From Escherichia coli (lineage in GTDB: Bacteria; Pseudomonadota; Gammaproteobacteria; Enterobacterales; Enterobacteriaceae): a stretch of DNA of 64,000 nucleotides. Location of the stretch: the NCBI RefSeq assembly GCF_045037415.1, contig NZ_CP173438.1. One strand, written 5' to 3'. The notes below the pieces were generated by a model that worked only from the letters and a program-made list of their open reading frames with translations, made no database searches and had not been told where the DNA came from. The translations under genes were made by a program, and so were the position numbers. This document shows, piece after piece, positions 6,069 to 26,214 of the stretch (position 1 is the first letter of the stretch; each line of letters opens with the position of its first letter).

Positions 6069-7472
6069 GTGTCACTTTCGCTTTGGCAGCAGTGTCTTGC
6101 CCGATTGCAGGATGAGTTACCAGCCACAGAATTCAGTATGTGGATACGCCCATTGCAGGCGGAACTGAGCGATAACACGCTGGCCCTGTACGCGCCAAAC
6201 CGTTTTGTCCTCGATTGGGTACGGGACAAGTACCTTAATAATATCAATGGACTGCTAACCAGTTTCTGCGGAGCGGATGCCCCACAGCTGCGTTTTGAAG
6301 TCGGCACCAAACCGGTGACGCAAACGCCACAAGCGGCAGTGACGAGCAACGTCGCGGCCCCTGCACAGGTGGCGCAAACGCAGCCGCAACGTGCTGCGCC
6401 TTCTACGCGCTCGGGTTGGGATAACGTCCCGGCTCCGGCAGAACCGACCTATCGTTCTAACGTAAACGTCAAACACACGTTTGATAACTTCGTTGAAGGT
6501 AAATCTAACCAACTGGCGCGCGCGGCGGCTCGCCAGGTGGCAGATAACCCTGGCGGTGCTTATAACCCGTTGTTCCTTTATGGCGGCACGGGTTTGGGTA
6601 AAACTCACCTGCTGCATGCGGTGGGTAACGGCATTATGGCGCGCAAGCCGAATGCCAAAGTGGTTTATATGCACTCCGAGCGCTTTGTTCAGGACATGGT
6701 TAAAGCCCTGCAAAACAACGCGATCGAAGAGTTTAAACGCTACTACCGTTCCGTAGATGCACTGCTGATCGACGATATTCAGTTTTTTGCTAATAAAGAA
6801 CGATCTCAGGAAGAGTTTTTCCACACCTTCAACGCCCTGCTGGAAGGTAATCAACAGATCATTCTCACCTCCGATCGCTATCCGAAAGAGATCAACGGCG
6901 TTGAGGATCGTTTGAAATCCCGCTTCGGCTGGGGACTGACTGTGGCGATCGAACCGCCAGAGCTGGAAACCCGCGTGGCGATCCTGATGAAAAAGGCCGA
7001 CGAAAACGACATTCGTTTGCCGGGCGAAGTGGCGTTCTTTATCGCCAAGCGTCTACGATCTAACGTACGTGAGTTGGAAGGCGCGCTGAACCGCGTCATT
7101 GCCAACGCCAACTTTACCGGACGGGCGATCACCATCGACTTCGTGCGTGAGGCGCTGCGCGACTTGCTGGCATTGCAGGAAAAACTGGTCACCATCGACA
7201 ATATTCAGAAGACGGTGGCGGAGTACTACAAGATCAAAGTCGCGGATCTCCTTTCCAAGCGTCGATCCCGCTCGGTGGCCCGTCCGCGCCAGATGGCGAT
7301 GGCGCTGGCGAAAGAGCTGACTAACCACAGTCTGCCGGAGATTGGCGATGCCTTTGGTGGTCGTGACCACACGACGGTGCTTCATGCCTGCCGGAAGATC
7401 GAGCAGTTGCGTGAAGAGAGCCACGATATCAAAGAAGATTTTTCTAATTTAATCAGAACATTGTCATCGTAA
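6069..7472 (+). CDS. dnaA: chromosomal replication initiator DnaA
   Basis: ORF track protein recognised as DnaA; start set at GTG 6069 ([14 protein letters not shown]...) rather than the upstream track start. Confidence 0.97.
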
Positions 7473-7476
7473 ACCT

Positions 7477-8576
7477 ATGAAATTTACCGTAGAACGTGAG
7501 CATTTATTAAAACCGCTACAACAGGTGAGCGGTCCGTTAGGTGGTCGTCCTACGCTACCGATTCTCGGTAATCTGCTGTTACAGGTTGCTGACGGTACGT
7601 TGTCGCTGACCGGTACTGATCTCGAGATGGAAATGGTGGCACGCGTTGCGCTGGTTCAGCCGCACGAACCAGGGGCGACGACCGTTCCGGCGCGCAAATT
7701 CTTTGATATCTGCCGTGGTCTGCCTGAAGGCGCGGAAATTGCCGTGCAGCTGGAAGGTGAGCGGATGCTGGTGCGCTCCGGGCGTAGCCGTTTTTCGCTG
7801 TCTACCCTGCCAGCGGCAGATTTCCCGAACCTCGATGACTGGCAGAGCGAAGTCGAATTTACCCTGCCGCAGGCGACGATGAAGCGTCTGATTGAAGCGA
7901 CCCAGTTTTCTATGGCACATCAGGACGTTCGCTATTACTTAAACGGTATGCTGTTTGAAACCGAAGGTGAAGAACTGCGCACCGTGGCGACCGACGGCCA
8001 CCGTCTGGCAGTCTGTTCAATGCCAATTGGTCAATCTTTGCCAAGCCATTCGGTGATCGTGCCGCGTAAAGGCGTAATTGAACTGATGCGTATGCTCGAC
8101 GGCGGCGACAATCCGCTGCGCGTGCAGATTGGCAGCAACAACATTCGCGCCCACGTTGGCGACTTTATCTTCACCTCGAAACTGGTGGATGGTCGCTTCC
8201 CGGATTACCGTCGCGTTCTGCCGAAGAACCCGGACAAGCATCTGGAAGCTGGCTGTGATCTGCTCAAGCAGGCGTTTGCCCGTGCGGCAATTCTCTCTAA
8301 CGAGAAATTCCGCGGCGTGCGTCTGTATGTCAGCGAAAACCAGCTGAAAATCACCGCCAACAACCCAGAACAGGAAGAAGCGGAAGAGATCCTCGACGTT
8401 ACCTATAGCGGTGCGGAGATGGAAATCGGCTTCAACGTCAGCTATGTGCTGGATGTTCTGAACGCACTGAAATGCGAAAACGTCCGCATGATGCTGACCG
8501 ATTCGGTTTCCAGCGTGCAGATTGAAGATGCGGCCAGCCAGAGCGCGGCTTATGTTGTCATGCCAATGAGACTGTA

Positions 8577-8577
<1 letters not shown>
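7477..8577 (+). CDS. dnaN: DNA polymerase III beta sliding clamp
   Basis: 366-aa [24 protein letters not shown]...; dnaA-dnaN-recF-gyrB synteny. Confidence 0.97.
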
Positions 8578-12093
<3,516 letters not shown>

Positions 12094-19262: not shown

Positions 19263-20323
19263 TCTTTCAACTGTGGAATATGTGCCACTCCACTGCGCAT
19301 AATCCACTTTCTTAAAGCCGGTGCGGTCAGGCATCGGCTTTTTACTATCTTGCCGAAGAGTTTTAAACGCAGTTTGCGAGTGGCGCGCCAGTAAGCGGTA
19401 TTGAGCTTCTCTGGCTGCTTCAGTAATACCGAACGCAGAATCTCTGCGCTATCCAGCGCATAGCTAATCCCCTCCAGCGAGCTGGCGCTGATAAATCCCG
19501 CCGCTTCGCCAATCAGAAAGGCGTTGTCCTTGCCGCAGACAAAATCCTGCCAGCGTGAGGGAAACAGCACCGTGCATTTTTCGCTTTTCACCGCCTTACC
19601 AAACTGGAACTGAAAGGCGCTCATTTTCTCTTTTAGCGTCGTGAAACGCGTCTGACCGTCTTTCATGGGATAGGCACCGCCAAAGATAAAATAACCGTCT
19701 TTGCTGATACTCCATGAGTAACAGTCAGTTATCGCATTATCAAAGATGCAGGAGTAGAACGGTACCGGATGTTTCTCTGCGAACCACTGCTGGATGGCGA
19801 CATATTTACGAATCTGATGATCCGGGTAGAGATGTCGCCGCACCATCGAGTTGGCACCATCGGCACCGACCAGATAGCGGGCGGTAATATGCTGCTCCCA
19901 GCCGTCTGCGCGAAAAATGACATGCCATTTATCATCCTCACGCCAGATTTTTCGACACAGGCTGTCGTGGTAAACCTCAACGCTGGCGGGGATCAGCGAT
20001 TTCATCCACAAGTCGAAAGCATGGCGATTAATATTGATATAGCTTCGCTGGTAGTTACGCGTGAGCGATGCGGCGACGTCGACGGTTTTGACGCTGAAAA
20101 TCTGCGGGTTGGCGATGACATCGACAGGAAGCGTCAGTCCATCGCGAATAAAAGATCGCTGCGCGTCCGGTGCCAGAAGACCGCCACAAGGTTTGCTGAA
20201 ACCTTCAGTACCACACTGGTGCTTTTTATCCAGCGCGATCACCTGCATTTTGCCTGCTAACTTTCGCGCCAACGCCGACCCTGCCGGGCCGAGGCCAATA
20301 ATCGCCACGTCGAAATGTTCCAT
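19223..20323 (-). CDS. cbrA: FAD-dependent oxidoreductase CbrA (YidS)
   Basis: [27 protein letters not shown]... with FAD-binding GxGxxG; 3' end overlaps dgoT convergently. Confidence 0.85.
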
Positions 20324-20423
20324 CTTTTCACTCACATTCATCACGATGGCAAAAGACTATTGTCTGAAAGTGAAGTCCTTGTGAAGTATGATGGCGGGAA
20401 CCGTTTTGTATCAGGACCGCGCC

Positions 20424-21638
20424 ATGAAACAGATAACCTTTGCTCCCCGTAATCACCTGCTCACCAATACCAATACCTGGACGCCCGACAGCCAGTGGCT
20501 GGTGTTTGACGTGCGGCCTTCTGGGGCGTCGTTTACCGGCGAGACCATTGAGCGTGTGAATATCCATACCGGCGAGGTCGAGGTTATCTATCGCGCGTCA
20601 CAGGGCGCATACGTCGGCGTGGTGACCGTTCATCCGAAGTCAGAGAAGTATGTCTTCATCCACGGCCCGGAAAATCCTGATGAAACATGGTATTACGACT
20701 TTCATCATCGGCGCGGAGTGATTGTTGAAAGCGGCAAGGTGAGCAATCTCGATGCAATGGATATTACCGCGCCATATACGCCAGGAGCGCTGCGCGGCGG
20801 CAGTCATGTACATGTCTTTAGCCCAAACGGTGAAAGGGTGAGCTTTACCTACAACGACCATGTAATGCATGAACTCGATCCGGCGCTGGATTTGCGAAAT
20901 GTCGGTGTTGCTGCACCGTTTGGCCCGGTCAACGTACAAAAGCAGCATCCGCGTGAATACAGCGGTAGCCACTGGTGCGTGCTGGTAAGTAAAACCACGC
21001 CCACGCCACAGCCTGGCAGTGATGAAATCAATCGTGCTTATGAAGAAGGATGGGTAGGAAATCACGCGCTGGCGTTTATTGGCGACACACTTTCGCCAAA
21101 GGGCGAGAAAGTGCCGGAGCTGTTTATTGTCGAGTTGCCGCAAGATGAAGCTGGCTGGAAAGTGGCAGGTGATGCGCCGTTAAGTGGAACGGAAACAACC
21201 CTGCCCGCGCCACCGCGTGGTGTCGTGCAGCGACGTTTAACCTTTACGCACCATCGGGCTTCTCCGGGATTAGTCAACGTCCCGCGCCACTGGGTGCGCT
21301 GTAATCCGCAGGGTACGCAAATCGCGTTTTTAATGCGTGATGATAACGGCATTGTGCAACTGTGGCTTATCTCGCCACAGGGCGGTGAACCACGCCAGTT
21401 AACCCATAATAAAACGGATATTCAGTCTGCATTTAACTGGCATCCATCAGGCGAATGGCTGGGATTTGTGCTGGATAATCGGATTGCTTGTGCCCATGCG
21501 CAAAGCGGCGAGGTTGAGTATTTAACCGAAAACCACGCCAATCCACCTTCTGCGGACGCCGTGGTTTTCTCGCCGGATGGTCAATGGTTGGCGTGGATGG
21601 AGGACGGTCAGTTGTGGATCACCGAAACTGACCGCTAG
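20424..21638 (+). CDS. yidR: conserved protein YidR
   Basis: ORF MKQITFAPRNHLLTNTNTWTPDSQWLVFDVRP...; synteny. Confidence 0.85.
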   Translation: MKQITFAPRNHLLTNTNTWTPDSQWLVFDVRPSGASFTGETIERVNIHTGEVEVIYRASQGAYVGVVTVHPKSEKYVFIHGPENPDETWYYDFHHRRGVIVESGKVSNLDAMDITAPYTPGALRGGSHVHVFSPNGERVSFTYNDHVMHELDPALDLRNVGVAAPFGPVNVQKQHPREYSGSHWCVLVSKTTPTPQPGSDEINRAYEEGWVGNHALAFIGDTLSPKGEKVPELFIVELPQDEAGWKVAGDAPLSGTETTLPAPPRGVVQRRLTFTHHRASPGLVNVPRHWVRCNPQGTQIAFLMRDDNGIVQLWLISPQGGEPRQLTHNKTDIQSAFNWHPSGEWLGFVLDNRIACAHAQSGEVEYLTENHANPPSADAVVFSPDGQWLAWMEDGQLWITETDR

Positions 21639-21641
21639 CTC

Positions 21642-21974
21642 TCAGTTTGCAGGCATTTTGGCGGGGGGAATGACGTTATTGGTTTCTTGCGCGTCGGCTT
21701 CGCTTTTTTCAACGCGCGAGCGCACTGAGCTGTCTTTGCGGAACACATCCCACGGTAGCAATATTGTGTCCAGTACTGCGGTAAATGGCATGTCGAGTAT
21801 CGCCAGCGATTTTGTGCCCCAGTTGGTTTCATCGTCGCCAATCATGGTTGCGCTGGCGCGGGTGCCAGGATACGTTCCTTCTTTCCCCCCGGTATGGGAC
21901 ATCACGCTGGAGCATCCTCCGAGTAATGTCATTCCGCTGCATATCATGAACGCTAACAACACATTTTTTATCAT
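21642..21974 (-). CDS. yidQ: putative outer-membrane lipoprotein YidQ
   Basis: ORF MIKNVLLAFMICSGMTLLGGCSS with lipobox; synteny beside ibpA. Confidence 0.8.
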   Translation of the reverse strand: MIKNVLLAFMICSGMTLLGGCSSVMSHTGGKEGTYPGTRASATMIGDDETNWGTKSLAILDMPFTAVLDTILLPWDVFRKDSSVRSRVEKSEADAQETNNVIPPAKMPAN

Positions 21975-22148
21975 AATAAATTCATCTGTTGATCGTGGGT
22001 GTTGGCCTGATGAGTTATAGCGATCCCTTGCTGAAAATAACATCATCATTACGTCGCACTGTGGCGGCTATCGCACTTTAACGTTTCGTGCTGCCCCCTC
22101 AGTCTATGCAATAGACCATAAACTGCAAAAAAAAGTCCGCTGATAAGG

Positions 22149-22178
22149 CTTGAAAAGTTCATTTCCAGACCCATTTTT
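22149..22178 (+). promoter_or_regulatory. sigma-32 heat-shock promoter of ibpA
   Basis: CTTGAAAA, 14-nt spacer, then CCCATTTTTA, matching the sigma-32 consensus (CTTGAAA / CCCCATnT). Confidence 0.6.
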
Positions 22179-22279
22179 ACATCGTAGCCGATGAGGACGC
22201 GCCTGATGGGTGTTCTGGCTACCTGACCTGTCCATTGTGGAAGGTCTTAGATTCTCGCTGATTTCAGGAGCTATTGATT

Positions 22280-22693
22280 ATGCGTAACTTTGATTTATCC
22301 CCGCTTTACCGTTCTGCTATTGGATTTGACCGTTTGTTTAACCACTTAGAAAACAACCAGAGCCAGAGTAATGGCGGCTACCCTCCGTATAACGTTGAAC
22401 TGGTAGACGAAAACCATTACCGCATTGCTATCGCTGTGGCTGGTTTTGCTGAGAGCGAACTGGAAATTACCGCCCAGGATAATCTGCTGGTGGTGAAAGG
22501 TGCTCACGCCGACGAACAAAAAGAGCGCACCTATCTGTACCAGGGCATCGCTGAACGCAACTTTGAACGTAAATTCCAGTTAGCTGAGAACATTCATGTT
22601 CGTGGTGCTAACCTGGTGAATGGTCTGCTGTATATCGATCTCGAACGCGTGATTCCGGAAGCGAAAAAACCGCGCCGTATCGAAATCAACTAA
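22280..22693 (+). CDS. ibpA: small heat shock protein IbpA
   Basis: [26 protein letters not shown]... recognised as IbpA. Confidence 0.95.
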
Positions 22694-22804
22694 TTCCCTA
22701 AGGCCGCCTGGCGCGGCCTGACATCTCCATGCTCGCCGTCAGGGAGCATATGCGAATCTTCGGATTTGCAGGTACTTACTCGCTTCTTAGAAGGAGAAAT
22801 GACT

Positions 22805-23233
22805 ATGCGTAACTTCGATTTATCCCCACTGATGCGTCAATGGATCGGTTTTGACAAACTGGCCAACGCACTGCAAAACGCCGGTGAAAGCCAGAGCTTC
22901 CCGCCGTACAACATTGAGAAAAGCGACGATAACCACTACCGCATTACCCTCGCGCTGGCAGGTTTTCGTCAGGAAGATTTAGAGATTCAACTGGAAGGTA
23001 CGCGCCTGAGCGTAAAAGGCACACCGGAGCAGCCAAAAGAAGAGAAAAAATGGCTGCATCAAGGGCTTATGAATCAGCCTTTTAGCCTGAGCTTTACGCT
23101 GGCTGAAAATATGGAAGTCTCTGGCGCAACCTTCGTAAACGGTTTACTGCATATTGATTTAATTCGTAATGAGCCTGAACCCATCGCAGCGCAGCGTATC
23201 GCTATCAGCGAACGTCCCGCGTTAAATAGCTAA
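22805..23233 (+). CDS. ibpB: small heat shock protein IbpB
   Basis: [27 protein letters not shown]... recognised as IbpB. Confidence 0.95.
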
Positions 23234-23249
23234 CTAGCTATTCTCTTTG

Positions 23250-23279
23250 CCCCGCCATTCTGGTGGGGCTTTTTTTTTG
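23250..23279 (+). terminator. Rho-independent terminator after ibpB
   Basis: Hairpin CCCCGCC-attc-tGGTGGGG followed by a run of nine T. Confidence 0.7.
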
Positions 23280-23430
23280 TCTTTTTTCTTCAACAATGCG
23301 TTAAATTTCGCCTGTTTAAGATATTTCGGCACGTTCTTTCCCGTGATAATGTGCGCTATAAGGCAAATCTGCTTCACCGATTCAGCCATAATCCGTAGCA
23401 ATTAAAATGTTATTTCAAGAGAAATGGACG

Positions 23431-25092
23431 ATGAGTGATATAGCATTAACGGTCAGTATTCTGGCTTTGGTGGCGGTCGTCGGGTTGTTTATCGGCAACG
23501 TCAAGTTTCGCGGTGTTGGATTGGGCATTGGCGGCGTGCTGTTCGGCGGGATCATCGTCGGCCATTTTGTTTCTCAGGCGGGGATGACATTAAGTAGCGA
23601 TATGCTGCATGTTATTCAGGAATTTGGCCTGATCCTGTTCGTTTATACCATCGGGATTCAGGTAGGGCCGGGCTTCTTTGCCTCATTGCGCGTCTCCGGA
23701 TTACGCCTCAACCTGTTTGCTGTTCTGATCGTCATCATCGGTGGTCTGGTTACCGCCATCCTGCATAAACTGTTTGATATTCCACTGCCGGTCGTGCTGG
23801 GGATTTTTTCCGGCGCGGTCACCAATACGCCAGCGCTGGGGGCAGGGCAGCAGATCTTGCGCGACCTGGGGACACCGATGGCGATGGTCGATCAAATGGG
23901 GATGAGCTATGCGATGGCGTATCCATTTGGGATTTGCGGCATTTTGTTCACTATGTGGATGCTGCGGGTTATTTTCCGCGTCAATGTTGAGACTGAGGCC
24001 CAGCAGCACGAGTCCACGCGAACCAACGGCGGTGCGCTAATCAGGACGATTAACATCCGAGTTGAGAATCCTAATTTGCATAATTTAGCCATTAAAGATG
24101 TGCCGATTCTCAATGGCGATAAAGTTATTTGCTCACGATTGAAACGAGAAGAAACCCTAAAAGTGCCTTCGCCAGAAACCGTTATTCAACTGGGCGATTT
24201 GCTGCATCTGGTGGGGCAGCCTGCGGATTTACATAATGCGCAACTGGTGATTGGTCAGGAGGTCGATACCTCGCTGTCTACGAAAGGCACTGATTTGCGC
24301 GTCGAGCGTGTGGTGGTCACCAATGAAAACGTGCTCGGTAAACGTATTCGCGACCTGCACTTTAAAGAACGCTATGACGTTGTTATCTCGCGCCTGAACC
24401 GTGCTGGTGTTGAATTAGTTGCAAGTAGCGATATCAGCCTGCAGTTCGGCGATATCCTCAACCTGGTGGGGCGTCCGTCCGCAATTGATGCCGTTGCCAA
24501 TGTGCTGGGGAATGCGCAGCAAAAACTGCAACAGGTTCAGATGCTGCCAGTGTTTATTGGTATCGGGCTTGGCGTATTGTTAGGTTCTATTCCCGTCTTT
24601 GTGCCGGGATTTCCGGCCGCGTTGAAACTGGGGCTGGCGGGCGGTCCGCTGATTATGGCGTTGATTCTCGGGCGTATCGGCAGTATCGGCAAGCTGTACT
24701 GGTTTATGCCGCCAAGCGCCAACCTCGCGCTGCGGGAGCTGGGGATCGTACTGTTCCTCTCGGTCGTTGGCCTGAAATCCGGCGGCGATTTTATCCATAC
24801 ACTGGTGGATGGCGAAGGGCTAAGCTGGATTGGTTATGGTGCCCTGATCACCGCCGTTCCGCTGATTACTGTTGGTATTCTGGCGCGGATGTTAGCCAAA
24901 ATGAATTACCTGACCATGTGCGGGATGCTGGCAGGTTCCATGACCGATCCTCCGGCGCTGGCGTTTGCTAATAATCTTCATCCAACCAGCGGTGCAGCGG
25001 CGCTCTCTTACGCCACTGTCTATCCGTTAGTGATGTTCCTGCGCATTATCACACCCCAATTACTGGCGGTGCTCTTCTGGAGTATCGGTTAA
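23431..25092 (+). CDS. yidE: putative transporter YidE
   Basis: [31 protein letters not shown]...; synteny. Confidence 0.9.
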
Positions 25093-25181
25093 CTCTTTTC
25101 CCGGTGGAGTCGCCGTAAATGGTACTCCGCCTGGTATTTCTGAACATCATCGAGTCATTTACACACTCGCCATTCTGGTTA

Positions 25182-26048
25182 TTACCTGTCCGTATTCTTC
25201 AGCACAGCTGACGGCGCATAACCAAATTTATGCTTAAAGGCTTTGCTGAAATGAAAGGAGTCGAAGAAGTTGAGCGTATCAGCGACTTCGCCAACCGAGT
25301 TCCCTTGTTGCTTTAATAGCGATAGCGCCAGATCCAGACGCGCATCGAGGTAATATTCTTTCGGCGTCTTGCCGGTATAGCGTAAAAACAGACGACGCAA
25401 CCAGGCCTCGCTACAGGGGATCGTGGCAGCCATATCAGCTACGCTCCAGCGTTGTTGTAGACTGGCATGTAAAGTGGCAATTAATTTTTCAATTTGCCGC
25501 CGTTGTGGATCTTTTTTACCGACTGCGTGCATAAGACAAATCCACTGATAAATAATTTTCGTCAGAAAAGCGACTGCCAGATTATTTTTTATTGCTTCTG
25601 GTGAAGTAATTAACTCAGCAACTTCGGTAAGTTCCTGATTATAAACTTCGCCATTATAAATAACGCTTTGCTGACCGACGGGAATATCCATCATACTGGT
25701 GGGGGTAAATTCCATCCAGTACTGTTCCCAGACCAAACCTTCACAGTGATAAGAGTGAATATCCATTGGCTTTAAAAATATAATACAGTTGCCATGCAGA
25801 GTTATTTGTTCGTCATTCTTTAAAAGAATTTTCCCACATCCTTGTACGGTATACACCGCAACCCATGAGTTGGCGATAAGCGGTTTCTTCTTGTCCCGCG
25901 GCCAGATCACCCGATAATGCTCGTCGGCGTAGGTATGCCAGAGCGATATCAGAGAAATTCCGCTGGAGATCACATTTTCGTTAATCAATAAGGGAATATT
26001 GTACGGAGTTTCGTTTTTTACATCCGAACTTTGCAATTTTCCATTCAT
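25182..26048 (-). CDS. yidL: AraC-family transcriptional regulator
   Basis: C-terminal AraC-type HTH region; start placed at the ATG (MNGKLQ) preceded by GGAGGG rather than the upstream GTG; gene name recalled from K-12 synteny. Confidence 0.75.
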   Translation of the reverse strand: MNGKLQSSDVKNETPYNIPLLINENVISSGISLISLWHTYADEHYRVIWPRDKKKPLIANSWVAVYTVQGCGKILLKNDEQITLHGNCIIFLKPMDIHSYHCEGLVWEQYWMEFTPTSMMDIPVGQQSVIYNGEVYNQELTEVAELITSPEAIKNNLAVAFLTKIIYQWICLMHAVGKKDPQRRQIEKLIATLHASLQQRWSVADMAATIPCSEAWLRRLFLRYTGKTPKEYYLDARLDLALSLLKQQGNSVGEVADTLNFFDSFHFSKAFKHKFGYAPSAVLKNTDR

Positions 26049-26214
26049 TTTAATATCCCTCCGGCGAATTATGCTCACAACCTGAACTTAACAGAAAACA
26101 ATCCGTTCAGGGATACGACGTTTGTATTTTAAGAATCTGACTGCCTGACCCGACGCATTTTACCTCTCCCTATATTCATGCGTCCGGGACATAAACATAA
26201 ATAAGGGCTATGAG

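What the first reader, a model, noticed from the sequence alone, without database searches (positions are those of the whole stretch)
25093..25181. yidE and yidL are directly convergent; yidP-glvCBG appears absent
From my recollection of K-12 gene order, yidP and the glvCBG operon lie between yidE and yidL. Here only about 90 bp containing a hairpin (GGAGT...ACTCC) separates them, suggesting a roughly 4 kb presence/absence polymorphism.
Basis: inference. Interest (0 to 1): 0.3.

Follow-up and report, generated by a model that had tools for sequence, protein, structure and literature searches.

The report
Old deletion of yidP-glv sugar operon
In this E. coli (ST131-type) sequence, the regulator yidP and the alpha-glucoside uptake and hydrolysis genes (glv) that K-12 and most E. 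coli carry between yidE and yidL have been deleted, leaving an 89-bp decayed stub of yidP; this is an ordinary, common gene-content difference.

Summary
The observation and the interpretation both hold. yidE (+, stop at 25090-25092) and yidL (-, stop at 25182-25184) converge across 89 bp (25093-25181). K-12 MG1655 has yidP, glvC, glvB and the glvG pseudogene between them.

The window lacks 3,368 bp relative to K-12. It lacks 3,876 bp relative to E. coli strains with an intact locus (yidP, a 538-aa alpha-glucoside PTS IIBC protein, and a 440-aa 6-phospho-alpha-glucosidase).

This is a deletion, not an insertion in K-12:
- YidL has lost its last 10 residues.
- The order yidE-yidP-glvBC-glvA-yidL-yidK is found in many other Enterobacteriaceae genera.

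The same junction is in 1,136 of 5,426 complete E. coli genomes. The lineages I recognise among them are all B2. The same junction and relic also occur in E. whittamii and two other divergent Escherichia genomes, so the allele is old.

The hairpin (25100-25134) already exists inside intact yidP and is the best-kept part of the relic. It may be a 3' stem-loop for yidE, but no canonical terminator is present.

This is ordinary, and already visible in public annotation. Interest is low.

The parts
23431..25092 (+). yidE, a putative AspT/YidE/YbjL-family transporter; left flank of the deletion
   Evidence: NCBIfam PRK03818 equivalog, 988 bits. RefSeq annotation of an identical genome. Collinear with K-12 yidE.
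25089..25183 (-). Decayed relic of the 3' end of yidP (about the last 33 codons of the GntR/UTRA regulator). It carries a 10-bp internal deletion between 25136 and 25137, which shifts the frame.
   Evidence: In blastn against K-12, the first ~45 bp after the yidE stop are ~96% identical. A 10-bp gap follows, then ~46 bp at ~70% identity. Minus-strand translations read [14 protein letters not shown] and NDSMMFRNT, against K-12 YidP ...NYSVMFRNASEYQVEYHLRRLHPEKS*. The Pfam UTRA domain of K-12 YidP reaches residue 224, so the distal relic lies within a native domain.
25100..25134 (+). Stem-loop CC-GGTGGAGT-GCC/loop/GGT-ACTCCGCC-GG, 8 nt after the yidE stop. It is inherited from the yidP 3' end and may be a 3' stem-loop or weak terminator for yidE.
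   Evidence: dG -19.7 kcal/mol, z = -4.15. The same hairpin lies inside intact yidP in K-12, E. albertii, Citrobacter, Klebsiella, Enterobacter and others. 73% of cells pair, against 25-44% when partners are slid. One pair covaries: CG 13, UG 10, UA 8, GC 6. The consensus scan finds no terminator because the loop and U-tract criteria are not met.
25183..25187 (.). Deletion junction. It joins yidP codon ~205 to yidL 27-33 nt before its original stop.
   Evidence: The blastn alignments to K-12 and to the intact allele L003 end at 25182 and restart at 25188. The identical junction is in E. whittamii, Escherichia sp. E1V33 and 'E. coli' E69.
25182..26048 (-). yidL, an AraC-family regulator; right flank. 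Its C-terminal tail is shortened: ...KNTDR* instead of ...KNTDQHPTDASPHN*.
   Evidence: Translations. The Pfam HTH_18/HTH_AraC and AraC_binding matches are unchanged between the 288-aa and 297-aa forms. RefSeq annotation.
26215..27930 (+). yidK, a solute:sodium symporter, divergent from yidL; context only
   Evidence: NCBIfam PRK10484 equivalog, 855.6 bits. Annotation.

Best explanation
The 89-bp spacer is the scar of an old deletion of about 3.9 kb. The deletion removed most of yidP (a GntR/UTRA regulator), the alpha-glucoside PTS IIBC gene (glvBC, the homologue of K. pneumoniae aglA), the 6-phospho-alpha-glucosidase gene (glvA, the homologue of aglB), and the last ~10 codons of yidL.

What was left is the last ~100 bp of yidP, now decayed and frameshifted, fused to a truncated yidL end that found a new stop codon after one codon.

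The ancestral order in Enterobacteriaceae was ibpAB-yidE-yidP-glvBC-glvA-yidL-yidK. The deletion arose once in Escherichia. It is now carried by about one fifth of complete E. coli genomes (apparently phylogroup B2, including ST131) and by several divergent Escherichia lineages.

The consequences are inferred. These strains lack this PTS route for alpha-glucosides such as isomaltose and sucrose isomers. yidE and yidL transcripts now converge on a spacer whose only structured element is the stem-loop that used to lie inside the yidP coding end. That stem-loop probably serves as a 3' end or weak terminator for yidE, which would explain why it is the best-preserved part of the relic.

The molecular mechanism of the deletion is not recoverable. 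There is no mobile element and no detectable microhomology, so illegitimate recombination is assumed.
For: - **K-12 gene order and the missing segment:**
- **Intact allele in E. coli strain 113:** it has yidP, a 538-aa IIBC protein (TIGR02005 alpha-glucoside-specific, 959 bits) and a 440-aa family-4 glycosidase annotated as 6-phospho-alpha-glucosidase. Both ends overlap yidE and yidL by 4 bp. The window lacks L003 2689-6564, which is 3,876 bp.
- **The relic is homologous to yidP at DNA and peptide level:**. The distal part falls within the UTRA domain.
- **Synteny elsewhere:** yidE-yidP-glvBC-glvA-yidL-yidK is found in Citrobacter braakii, Klebsiella oxytoca, Kluyvera, Pseudocitrobacter, Dryocola and others. 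Protein identities track those of YidE.
- **Base composition:** the missing segment is 52.0% GC, like yidE (52.8%) and yidK (53.0%). It has no mobility genes.
- **The junction is shared:** the same junction, the same 10-bp gap and the same diverged distal relic are in E. whittamii, Escherichia sp. E1V33 and 'E. coli' E69. Their flanks differ from the window by 6-12%.
- **Frequency:** 1,136 of 5,426 genomes carry the junction. Carriers include ST131, clone D i2 and O2:K1:H7 APEC strains, which are B2 by established knowledge.
- **Hairpin conservation and one covarying pair:**
- **Substrates:** those of the K. pneumoniae AglA/AglB homologues, and the cryptic state of the K-12 copies, are taken from PMC5309279.
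Against: - **Allele history is not simple.** The distal relic is ~30% diverged from every intact yidP, yet E. albertii and non-B2 E. coli keep an intact, Escherichia-like copy (K-12 against E. albertii yidP is 90% identical). One loss on a clean tree does not fit. Either a long-lived polymorphism or transfer of the allele by homologous recombination is needed, and I could not tell which.
- **The B2 assignment was not formally tested.** It rests on recognisable strain names and on the 21% frequency.
- **The terminator role is weak.** The consensus scan finds no terminator, the U-tract is poor (UGGUAUUUCUG), and the covariation is confounded by yidP coding constraints.
- **No breakpoint microhomology.** The longest word shared at the two breakpoints is 5 nt, which equals the null mode.
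Confidence: 0.9

Rival explanations
1. The short form is ancestral. On this reading yidP-glvCBG is a horizontally acquired cassette inserted between yidE and yidL in the K-12 lineage.
For: Direct yidE-yidL adjacency also occurs in several other genera and species: Citrobacter youngae, C. werkmanii, C. sedlakii, Salmonella arizonae, Trabulsiella and Pluralibacter. The deletion-type allele is shared by several Escherichia lineages.
Against: - The window's spacer contains recognisable yidP coding sequence, including part of the UTRA domain.
- The cassette sits at the same site in many genera, with divergence that parallels yidE.
- GC content is normal and there are no mobility genes.
- The other genera with direct adjacency have unrelated spacers (REP-like or other hairpins) and different junctions. 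These look like independent losses.
Confidence: 0.04
2. B2 E. coli did not inherit the deletion vertically. It acquired the deletion allele from a cryptic Escherichia clade, or donated it to one, by homologous recombination across the flanks. This is a sub-hypothesis about history, not about what the feature is.
For: - The junction and relic are identical across lineages whose flanks are 6-12% diverged.
- The distal 47 nt of the relic are 47/47 identical between the window and E. whittamii.
- At yidE nucleotides 401-800, the window is closer to E. whittamii (6.0%) and E69 (7.0%) than to K-12 (12.2%). This is a mosaic patch that signals past exchange nearby.
Against: - Right next to the junction the window's flanks are E. 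coli-like. yidL is 97.7% identical to K-12 against 92-94% to the cryptic clades, and the yidE 3' half is 96% against 88-91%.
- Mismatches to E. whittamii resume within a few bases on both sides of the 56-nt identical run.
- Against E69, the distal relic has 8 differences in ~25 nt.
Confidence: 0.35
3. The spacer is kept because it encodes a functional non-coding element beyond the hairpin, such as an sRNA or a regulatory site for yidL or yidE.
For: There are no differences between the window and E. whittamii over 25130-25185, although third-codon positions in the flanking genes differ by 17-26%.
Against: - The same stretch has 8 differences in E69.
- Some 50-nt bins in the coding flanks also show 0-1 differences.
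- There is no Rfam family in the spacer at gathering threshold.
- There is no promoter-like or terminator-like site in the spacer.
- Folding of the whole spacer is unremarkable, with z = -1.7 and -0.9 on the two strands.
Confidence: 0.07

Closest known systems
E. coli K-12 yidP-glvCBG locus (cryptic glv operon, b3681-b3684)
   Same: It occupies the same chromosomal site, between the same yidE and yidL genes. The window's spacer is homologous to the last ~100 bp of K-12 yidP.
   Different: K-12 keeps the block, but degraded: glvA has a 508-bp internal deletion (the glvG pseudogene) and the IIBC gene is split into glvC and glvB. The window has lost 3,368 bp of it, along with the yidL tail.
Intact yidP-glvBC-glvA locus of other E. 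coli (e.g. strain 113, NZ_CP028680.1), homologous to Klebsiella pneumoniae aglA/aglB (alpha-glucoside PTS plus phospho-alpha-glucosidase)
   Same: This is the pre-deletion state of the site. The regulator is convergent with yidE by a 4-bp overlap, and the glycosidase is convergent with yidL by a 4-bp overlap. The hairpin sits inside the yidP end.
   Different: All three genes are absent from the window. Function in E. coli was not tested here. The substrate range is taken from work on the K. pneumoniae genes as summarised in PMC5309279.
Independent yidE-yidL adjacencies in other Enterobacteriaceae (Citrobacter youngae, C. werkmanii, C. sedlakii, Salmonella enterica subsp. arizonae, Trabulsiella, Pluralibacter)
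   Same: The outcome is the same: yidP-glv is missing and yidE is convergent with yidL across a short spacer.
   Different: The junctions and spacers differ (25-60 bp, REP-like or other GC-rich hairpins) and there is no recognisable yidP relic. These are separate events, or much older ones.

Membership tests
Deletion-type presence/absence polymorphism (gene loss with relic) | Both flanks are orthologous to, and collinear with, genomes that carry the segment | tested here: met
   blastn against K-12 and L003 gives 95-97% identity on both sides, in the same order and orientation.
Deletion-type presence/absence polymorphism (gene loss with relic) | A remnant of a deleted gene lies at the junction | tested here: met
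   About 95 bp are homologous to the yidP 3' end at DNA and peptide level, with a frameshifting 10-bp gap. The yidL tail is truncated.
Deletion-type presence/absence polymorphism (gene loss with relic) | Outgroups carry the segment at the same site, so presence is ancestral | tested here: met
   E. albertii has yidP next to yidE. Citrobacter braakii, Klebsiella oxytoca, Kluyvera, Pseudocitrobacter, Dryocola and others have the full yidE-yidP-glvBC-glvA-yidL-yidK order.
Deletion-type presence/absence polymorphism (gene loss with relic) | Both states segregate within the species | tested here: met
   1,136 genomes have the junction and 4,269 have the block, out of 5,426 complete E. coli genomes.
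Horizontally acquired genomic island (for the K-12 block) | Atypical base composition, mobility genes, or flanking direct repeats or a tRNA | tested here: not met
   GC is 52.0%, against 52.8-53.0% in yidE and yidK. Only a regulator, a PTS gene and a glycosidase are annotated. The longest word shared at the breakpoints is 5 nt, which equals the null mode.
Intrinsic (Rho-independent) terminator | A GC-rich stem, a short loop (3-8 nt), and a run of U immediately 3' of the stem | tested here: not met
   The stem is present (dG -19.7). The consensus scan reports 0 terminator-like sites in 24800-26400. The tail is UGGUAUUUCUG.
Conserved RNA stem-loop (structure under selection) | Pairing is maintained across divergent sequences with compensatory changes | tested here: inconclusive
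   73% of cells pair, against 25-44% in the slid controls. Only 2 of 13 pairs show double changes. One pair has four pair types. The region is also yidP coding sequence, which confounds the test.
REP/BIME or other dispersed intergenic repeat | Multiple copies in the genome | tested here: not met
   The 301-nt junction query gives at most 2 places per genome, and where there are two they are the two sides of the yidP-glv block. The distal relic occurs once in the 64-kb window, even allowing 3 mismatches. There is no Rfam hit in the spacer.

The most novel reading that the evidence does not exclude
The deletion allele may be an ancient, trans-species presence/absence polymorphism in Escherichia. 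On this reading it is older than the split of E. coli from the cryptic clades, and it is kept alongside the intact alpha-glucoside PTS locus either by selection on niche (B2 and the cryptic clades against the other phylogroups) or by repeated recombination. The relic's stem-loop would be retained because it has always been the 3' end signal of yidE, embedded in the coding end of the convergent yidP gene.
Probability: 0.3. Interest if true: 0.3.

Novelty: already known. Interest (0 to 1): 0.12.

Why it matters
It matters little beyond bookkeeping. It documents one of the many gene-content differences between B2/ST131-type E. coli and K-12, namely loss of a putative alpha-glucoside (isomaltose and sucrose-isomer type) PTS pathway. 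That pathway is already cryptic in K-12.

Three points are useful for annotation:
- The yidE-yidL spacer should be read as a yidP pseudogene fragment.
- B2 YidL has a shortened tail.
- K-12 is not the intact reference for this locus.

Two further points are modest curiosities for population genetics and for transcript 3'-end biology. One is the sharing of the identical scar with E. whittamii and other divergent Escherichia. The other is the hairpin embedded in the convergent gene's coding end.

Tried and rejected
1. **Insertion in K-12 rather than deletion here.** Rejected on the relic, the synteny in other genera and the normal GC content.
2. **Microhomology or repeats at the breakpoints of a present-day intact allele.** The longest shared word is 5 nt, the null mode, so the mechanism stays unresolved.
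3. **Canonical terminator or promoter in the spacer.** None found.
4. **Known RNA family in the spacer.** Rfam at gathering threshold finds only AsdA and ROSE_2, both elsewhere in the window.
5. **Selective constraint on the distal relic.** It is 47/47 identical to E. whittamii but has 8 differences in E69, so the evidence is not consistent.
6. **A donor yidP closer to the relic than E. coli's own.** No locus other than the deletion carriers scores above ~23/47.
7. **Literature.** Two full-text searches found no paper describing this polymorphism. They found only the statement that the K-12 agl/glv homologues are cryptic or truncated.

Full report
**What is at the coordinates**

The window reads as E. 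coli. A 4-kb stretch around the finding is 100% identical to many ST131-type chromosomes.

The ORF at 23407-25092 (+) is yidE: it matches the NCBIfam equivalog PRK03818 at 988 bits. RefSeq places the start at 23431. The ORF at 25182-26078 (-) is an AraC-family regulator that RefSeq annotates as yidL. The start equivalent to K-12's is 26048.

The two stop codons face each other across 25093-25181, which is 89 bp. GGAGT (25106-25110) and ACTCC (25124-25128) are the core of a longer stem-loop at 25100-25134. Its dG is -19.7 kcal/mol, with z = -4.15 against shuffles of a 46-nt stretch chosen around the hairpin.

MG1655 has, between yidE and yidL, the genes yidP (GntR/UTRA regulator), glvC, glvB and the glvG pseudogene.

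blastn aligns window 20000-25182 to one side of that locus and window 25188-29421 to the other. 3,368 bp of K-12 have no counterpart in the window. The recalled gene order and the inferred polymorphism are therefore correct.

**K-12 is not the intact state**

A search with the K-12 block shows at least three alleles in E. coli. Many strains carry 508 bp more than K-12.

In strain 113 (L003) the locus contains:
- yidP;
- a single 538-aa IIBC gene (TIGR02005, alpha-glucoside-specific PTS IIBC, 959 bits);
- a 440-aa family-4 glycosidase annotated as 6-phospho-alpha-glucosidase.

yidP overlaps the yidE stop by 4 bp, and the glycosidase overlaps the yidL stop by 4 bp.

Relative to this intact allele, the window lacks L003 2689-6564, which is 3,876 bp. 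K-12 has its own lesions: an internal 508-bp deletion in glvA and a split IIBC gene. This fits the published view that the K-12 homologues of K. pneumoniae aglA/aglB are cryptic or truncated (PMC5309279).

**Deletion, not insertion**

Four lines of evidence agree.

- **The spacer is a piece of yidP.** The first ~45 bp after the yidE stop are ~96% identical to the K-12 yidP 3' end. A 10-bp gap follows (between 25136 and 25137), then ~46 bp at ~70% identity. On the minus strand the spacer translates as [14 protein letters not shown] and, in another frame, NDSMMFRNT. K-12 YidP ends ...NYSVMFRNASEYQVEYHLRRLHPEKS*. The Pfam UTRA domain of YidP reaches residue 224, so the distal part of the relic lies within a native protein domain. 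It is not intergenic DNA that yidP happened to read into.
- **yidL lost its own end.** Intact and K-12 YidL end ...KNTDQHPTDASPHN*, whereas the window's ends ...KNTDR*. The HTH and ligand-binding domain matches are unchanged.
- **The full gene order is widespread.** A scan of one genome per species with YidE and tblastn of the loci find ibpAB-yidE-yidP-glvBC-glvA-yidL-yidK in Citrobacter braakii, Klebsiella oxytoca, Kluyvera, Pseudocitrobacter, Dryocola and others. Protein identities parallel those of YidE. E. albertii has yidP next to yidE.
- **The segment does not look foreign.** It is 52.0% GC, like its neighbours, and contains no mobility genes.

**Frequency and age**

The 301-nt junction is covered at 80% or more in 1,136 of 5,426 complete E. 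coli genomes, nearly all at 99% identity or higher. 4,269 genomes carry the block.

The carriers I can recognise are ST131, clone D i2 and O2:K1:H7 APEC, all B2 by established knowledge. Recognisable non-carriers are K-12, O157:H7 and O111:H11. The B2 association is an inference and was not formally tested.

The same junction, the same 10-bp gap and the same diverged distal relic occur in three other genomes: E. whittamii (L005), Escherichia sp. E1V33 (L006) and a genome labelled E. coli E69 (L008). Their flanking genes differ from the window by 6-12%. The deletion therefore happened once and is old.

Its history is not a clean single loss:
- Right next to the junction, the window's flanks are E. 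coli-like. yidL is 97.7% identical to K-12 but 92-94% to the cryptic clades.
- Within yidE, nucleotides 401-800 of the CDS (about window 23831-24230) are 12.2% diverged from K-12, but only 6-7% from E. whittamii and E69. The region is mosaic.
- Non-B2 E. coli keep an Escherichia-like intact yidP, 90% identical to that of E. albertii.

The pattern needs either a long-lived polymorphism or movement of the allele by homologous recombination. I could not decide between them.

Other genera with direct yidE-yidL adjacency have different junctions and unrelated spacers, and look like independent losses. These include three Citrobacter species, Salmonella arizonae, Trabulsiella and Pluralibacter.

**The hairpin**

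The hairpin was not created by the deletion. It lies inside the coding end of intact yidP in Escherichia and in most other genera where yidP abuts yidE.

In a 50-sequence alignment, 73% of cells pair, against 25-44% when the partners are slid. One pair shows four pair types: CG 13, UG 10, UA 8 and GC 6.

In genera where a separate GC-rich terminator sits between yidE and yidP (Cedecea, Dryocola, Buttiauxella), YidP is shorter and the left arm of the hairpin is absent.

This suggests, but does not prove, that the stem-loop serves the yidE 3' end. That would explain why it is the best-preserved part of the relic. Against this reading:
- the consensus scan finds no terminator;
- the U-tract is poor;
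- coding constraints in yidP confound the covariation.

The window has two lineage-specific changes in the hairpin region, at 25102 and 25129. Both are absent from another deletion carrier, FY10, and both slightly weaken the stem.

**Checked and not supported**

- No Rfam family lies in the spacer.
- There is no consistent constraint on the distal relic. It is identical to E. whittamii over 56 nt but has 8 differences in ~25 nt against E69, and some coding bins are equally invariant.
- The spacer is not a dispersed repeat.
- No breakpoint microhomology is detectable in a present-day intact allele. The deletion mechanism remains assumed (illegitimate recombination).
- Two literature searches found no paper on this polymorphism.

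**Verdict**

The finding is real and correctly interpreted. It is an ordinary gene-loss polymorphism, already visible in public annotation of more than a thousand genomes.

Three things are new here: the direction of the change (a deletion, with a yidP relic and a truncated yidL), the intact reference state, and the observation that the same scar is shared across Escherichia lineages. Interest is low.

Noticed in passing
window 27927-29421 (indel near 28259): yidJ (sulfatase-like) carries a +1 frameshift relative to K-12: an extra C, GGCACC against GGCAC. The gene is split into ORFs of 120 aa and 466 aa. RefSeq annotates two fragments in an identical genome.
   Followed up: partly
window 29422-29469: yidI is absent. 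K-12 has 592 bp here (yidI plus flanks) between yidJ and yidH. The window has 48 bp containing a hairpin, CTGTTCCT...AGGAACAG. This is a second indel, 4 kb from the first.
   Followed up: partly
window about 23831-24230 (yidE CDS nt 401-800): This is a mosaic patch. The window is 12.2% diverged from K-12 here, against ~4% in the rest of yidE. It is only 6-7% from E. whittamii and E69, which suggests past inter-lineage recombination inside yidE.
   Followed up: partly
L001 (K-12) 6174-8604 against L003 3597-6535: K-12's own glv locus is degraded relative to other E. coli. glvA has a 508-bp internal deletion (the glvG pseudogene) and the IIBC gene is split into glvC and glvB. Another allele (strain KV7, L004) has a frameshifted yidP and an internal stop in yidK.
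   Followed up: partly
window 23000-27000 equivalents in NZ_CP157672.1, NZ_CP159750.1 and NZ_CP184102.1: Some ST131 genomes have an IS1 inserted in this stretch. In two of them yidL is annotated as two fragments. The window has no such insertion.
   Followed up: no
L012, L015, L016, L020, L022, L037, L057 (downstream of yidE): Other genera and species also have yidE directly convergent with yidL, but with different short spacers (REP-like or GC-rich hairpins) and no yidP relic. The locus appears to have been lost repeatedly.
   Followed up: partly
L077 and L081 (Superficieibacter), L030: Superficieibacter has two tandem copies of yidP-glvBC-glvA downstream of yidE, with the second yidP 56% identical. 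One Citrobacter-labelled genome has a second yidP paralogue.
   Followed up: no
window 22214-22286 and 6579-6659: There is a ROSE_2 RNA thermometer upstream of ibpA (96.6 bits) and the AsdA antisense RNA of dnaA (99.7 bits). Both are expected features of this chromosomal region.
   Followed up: no
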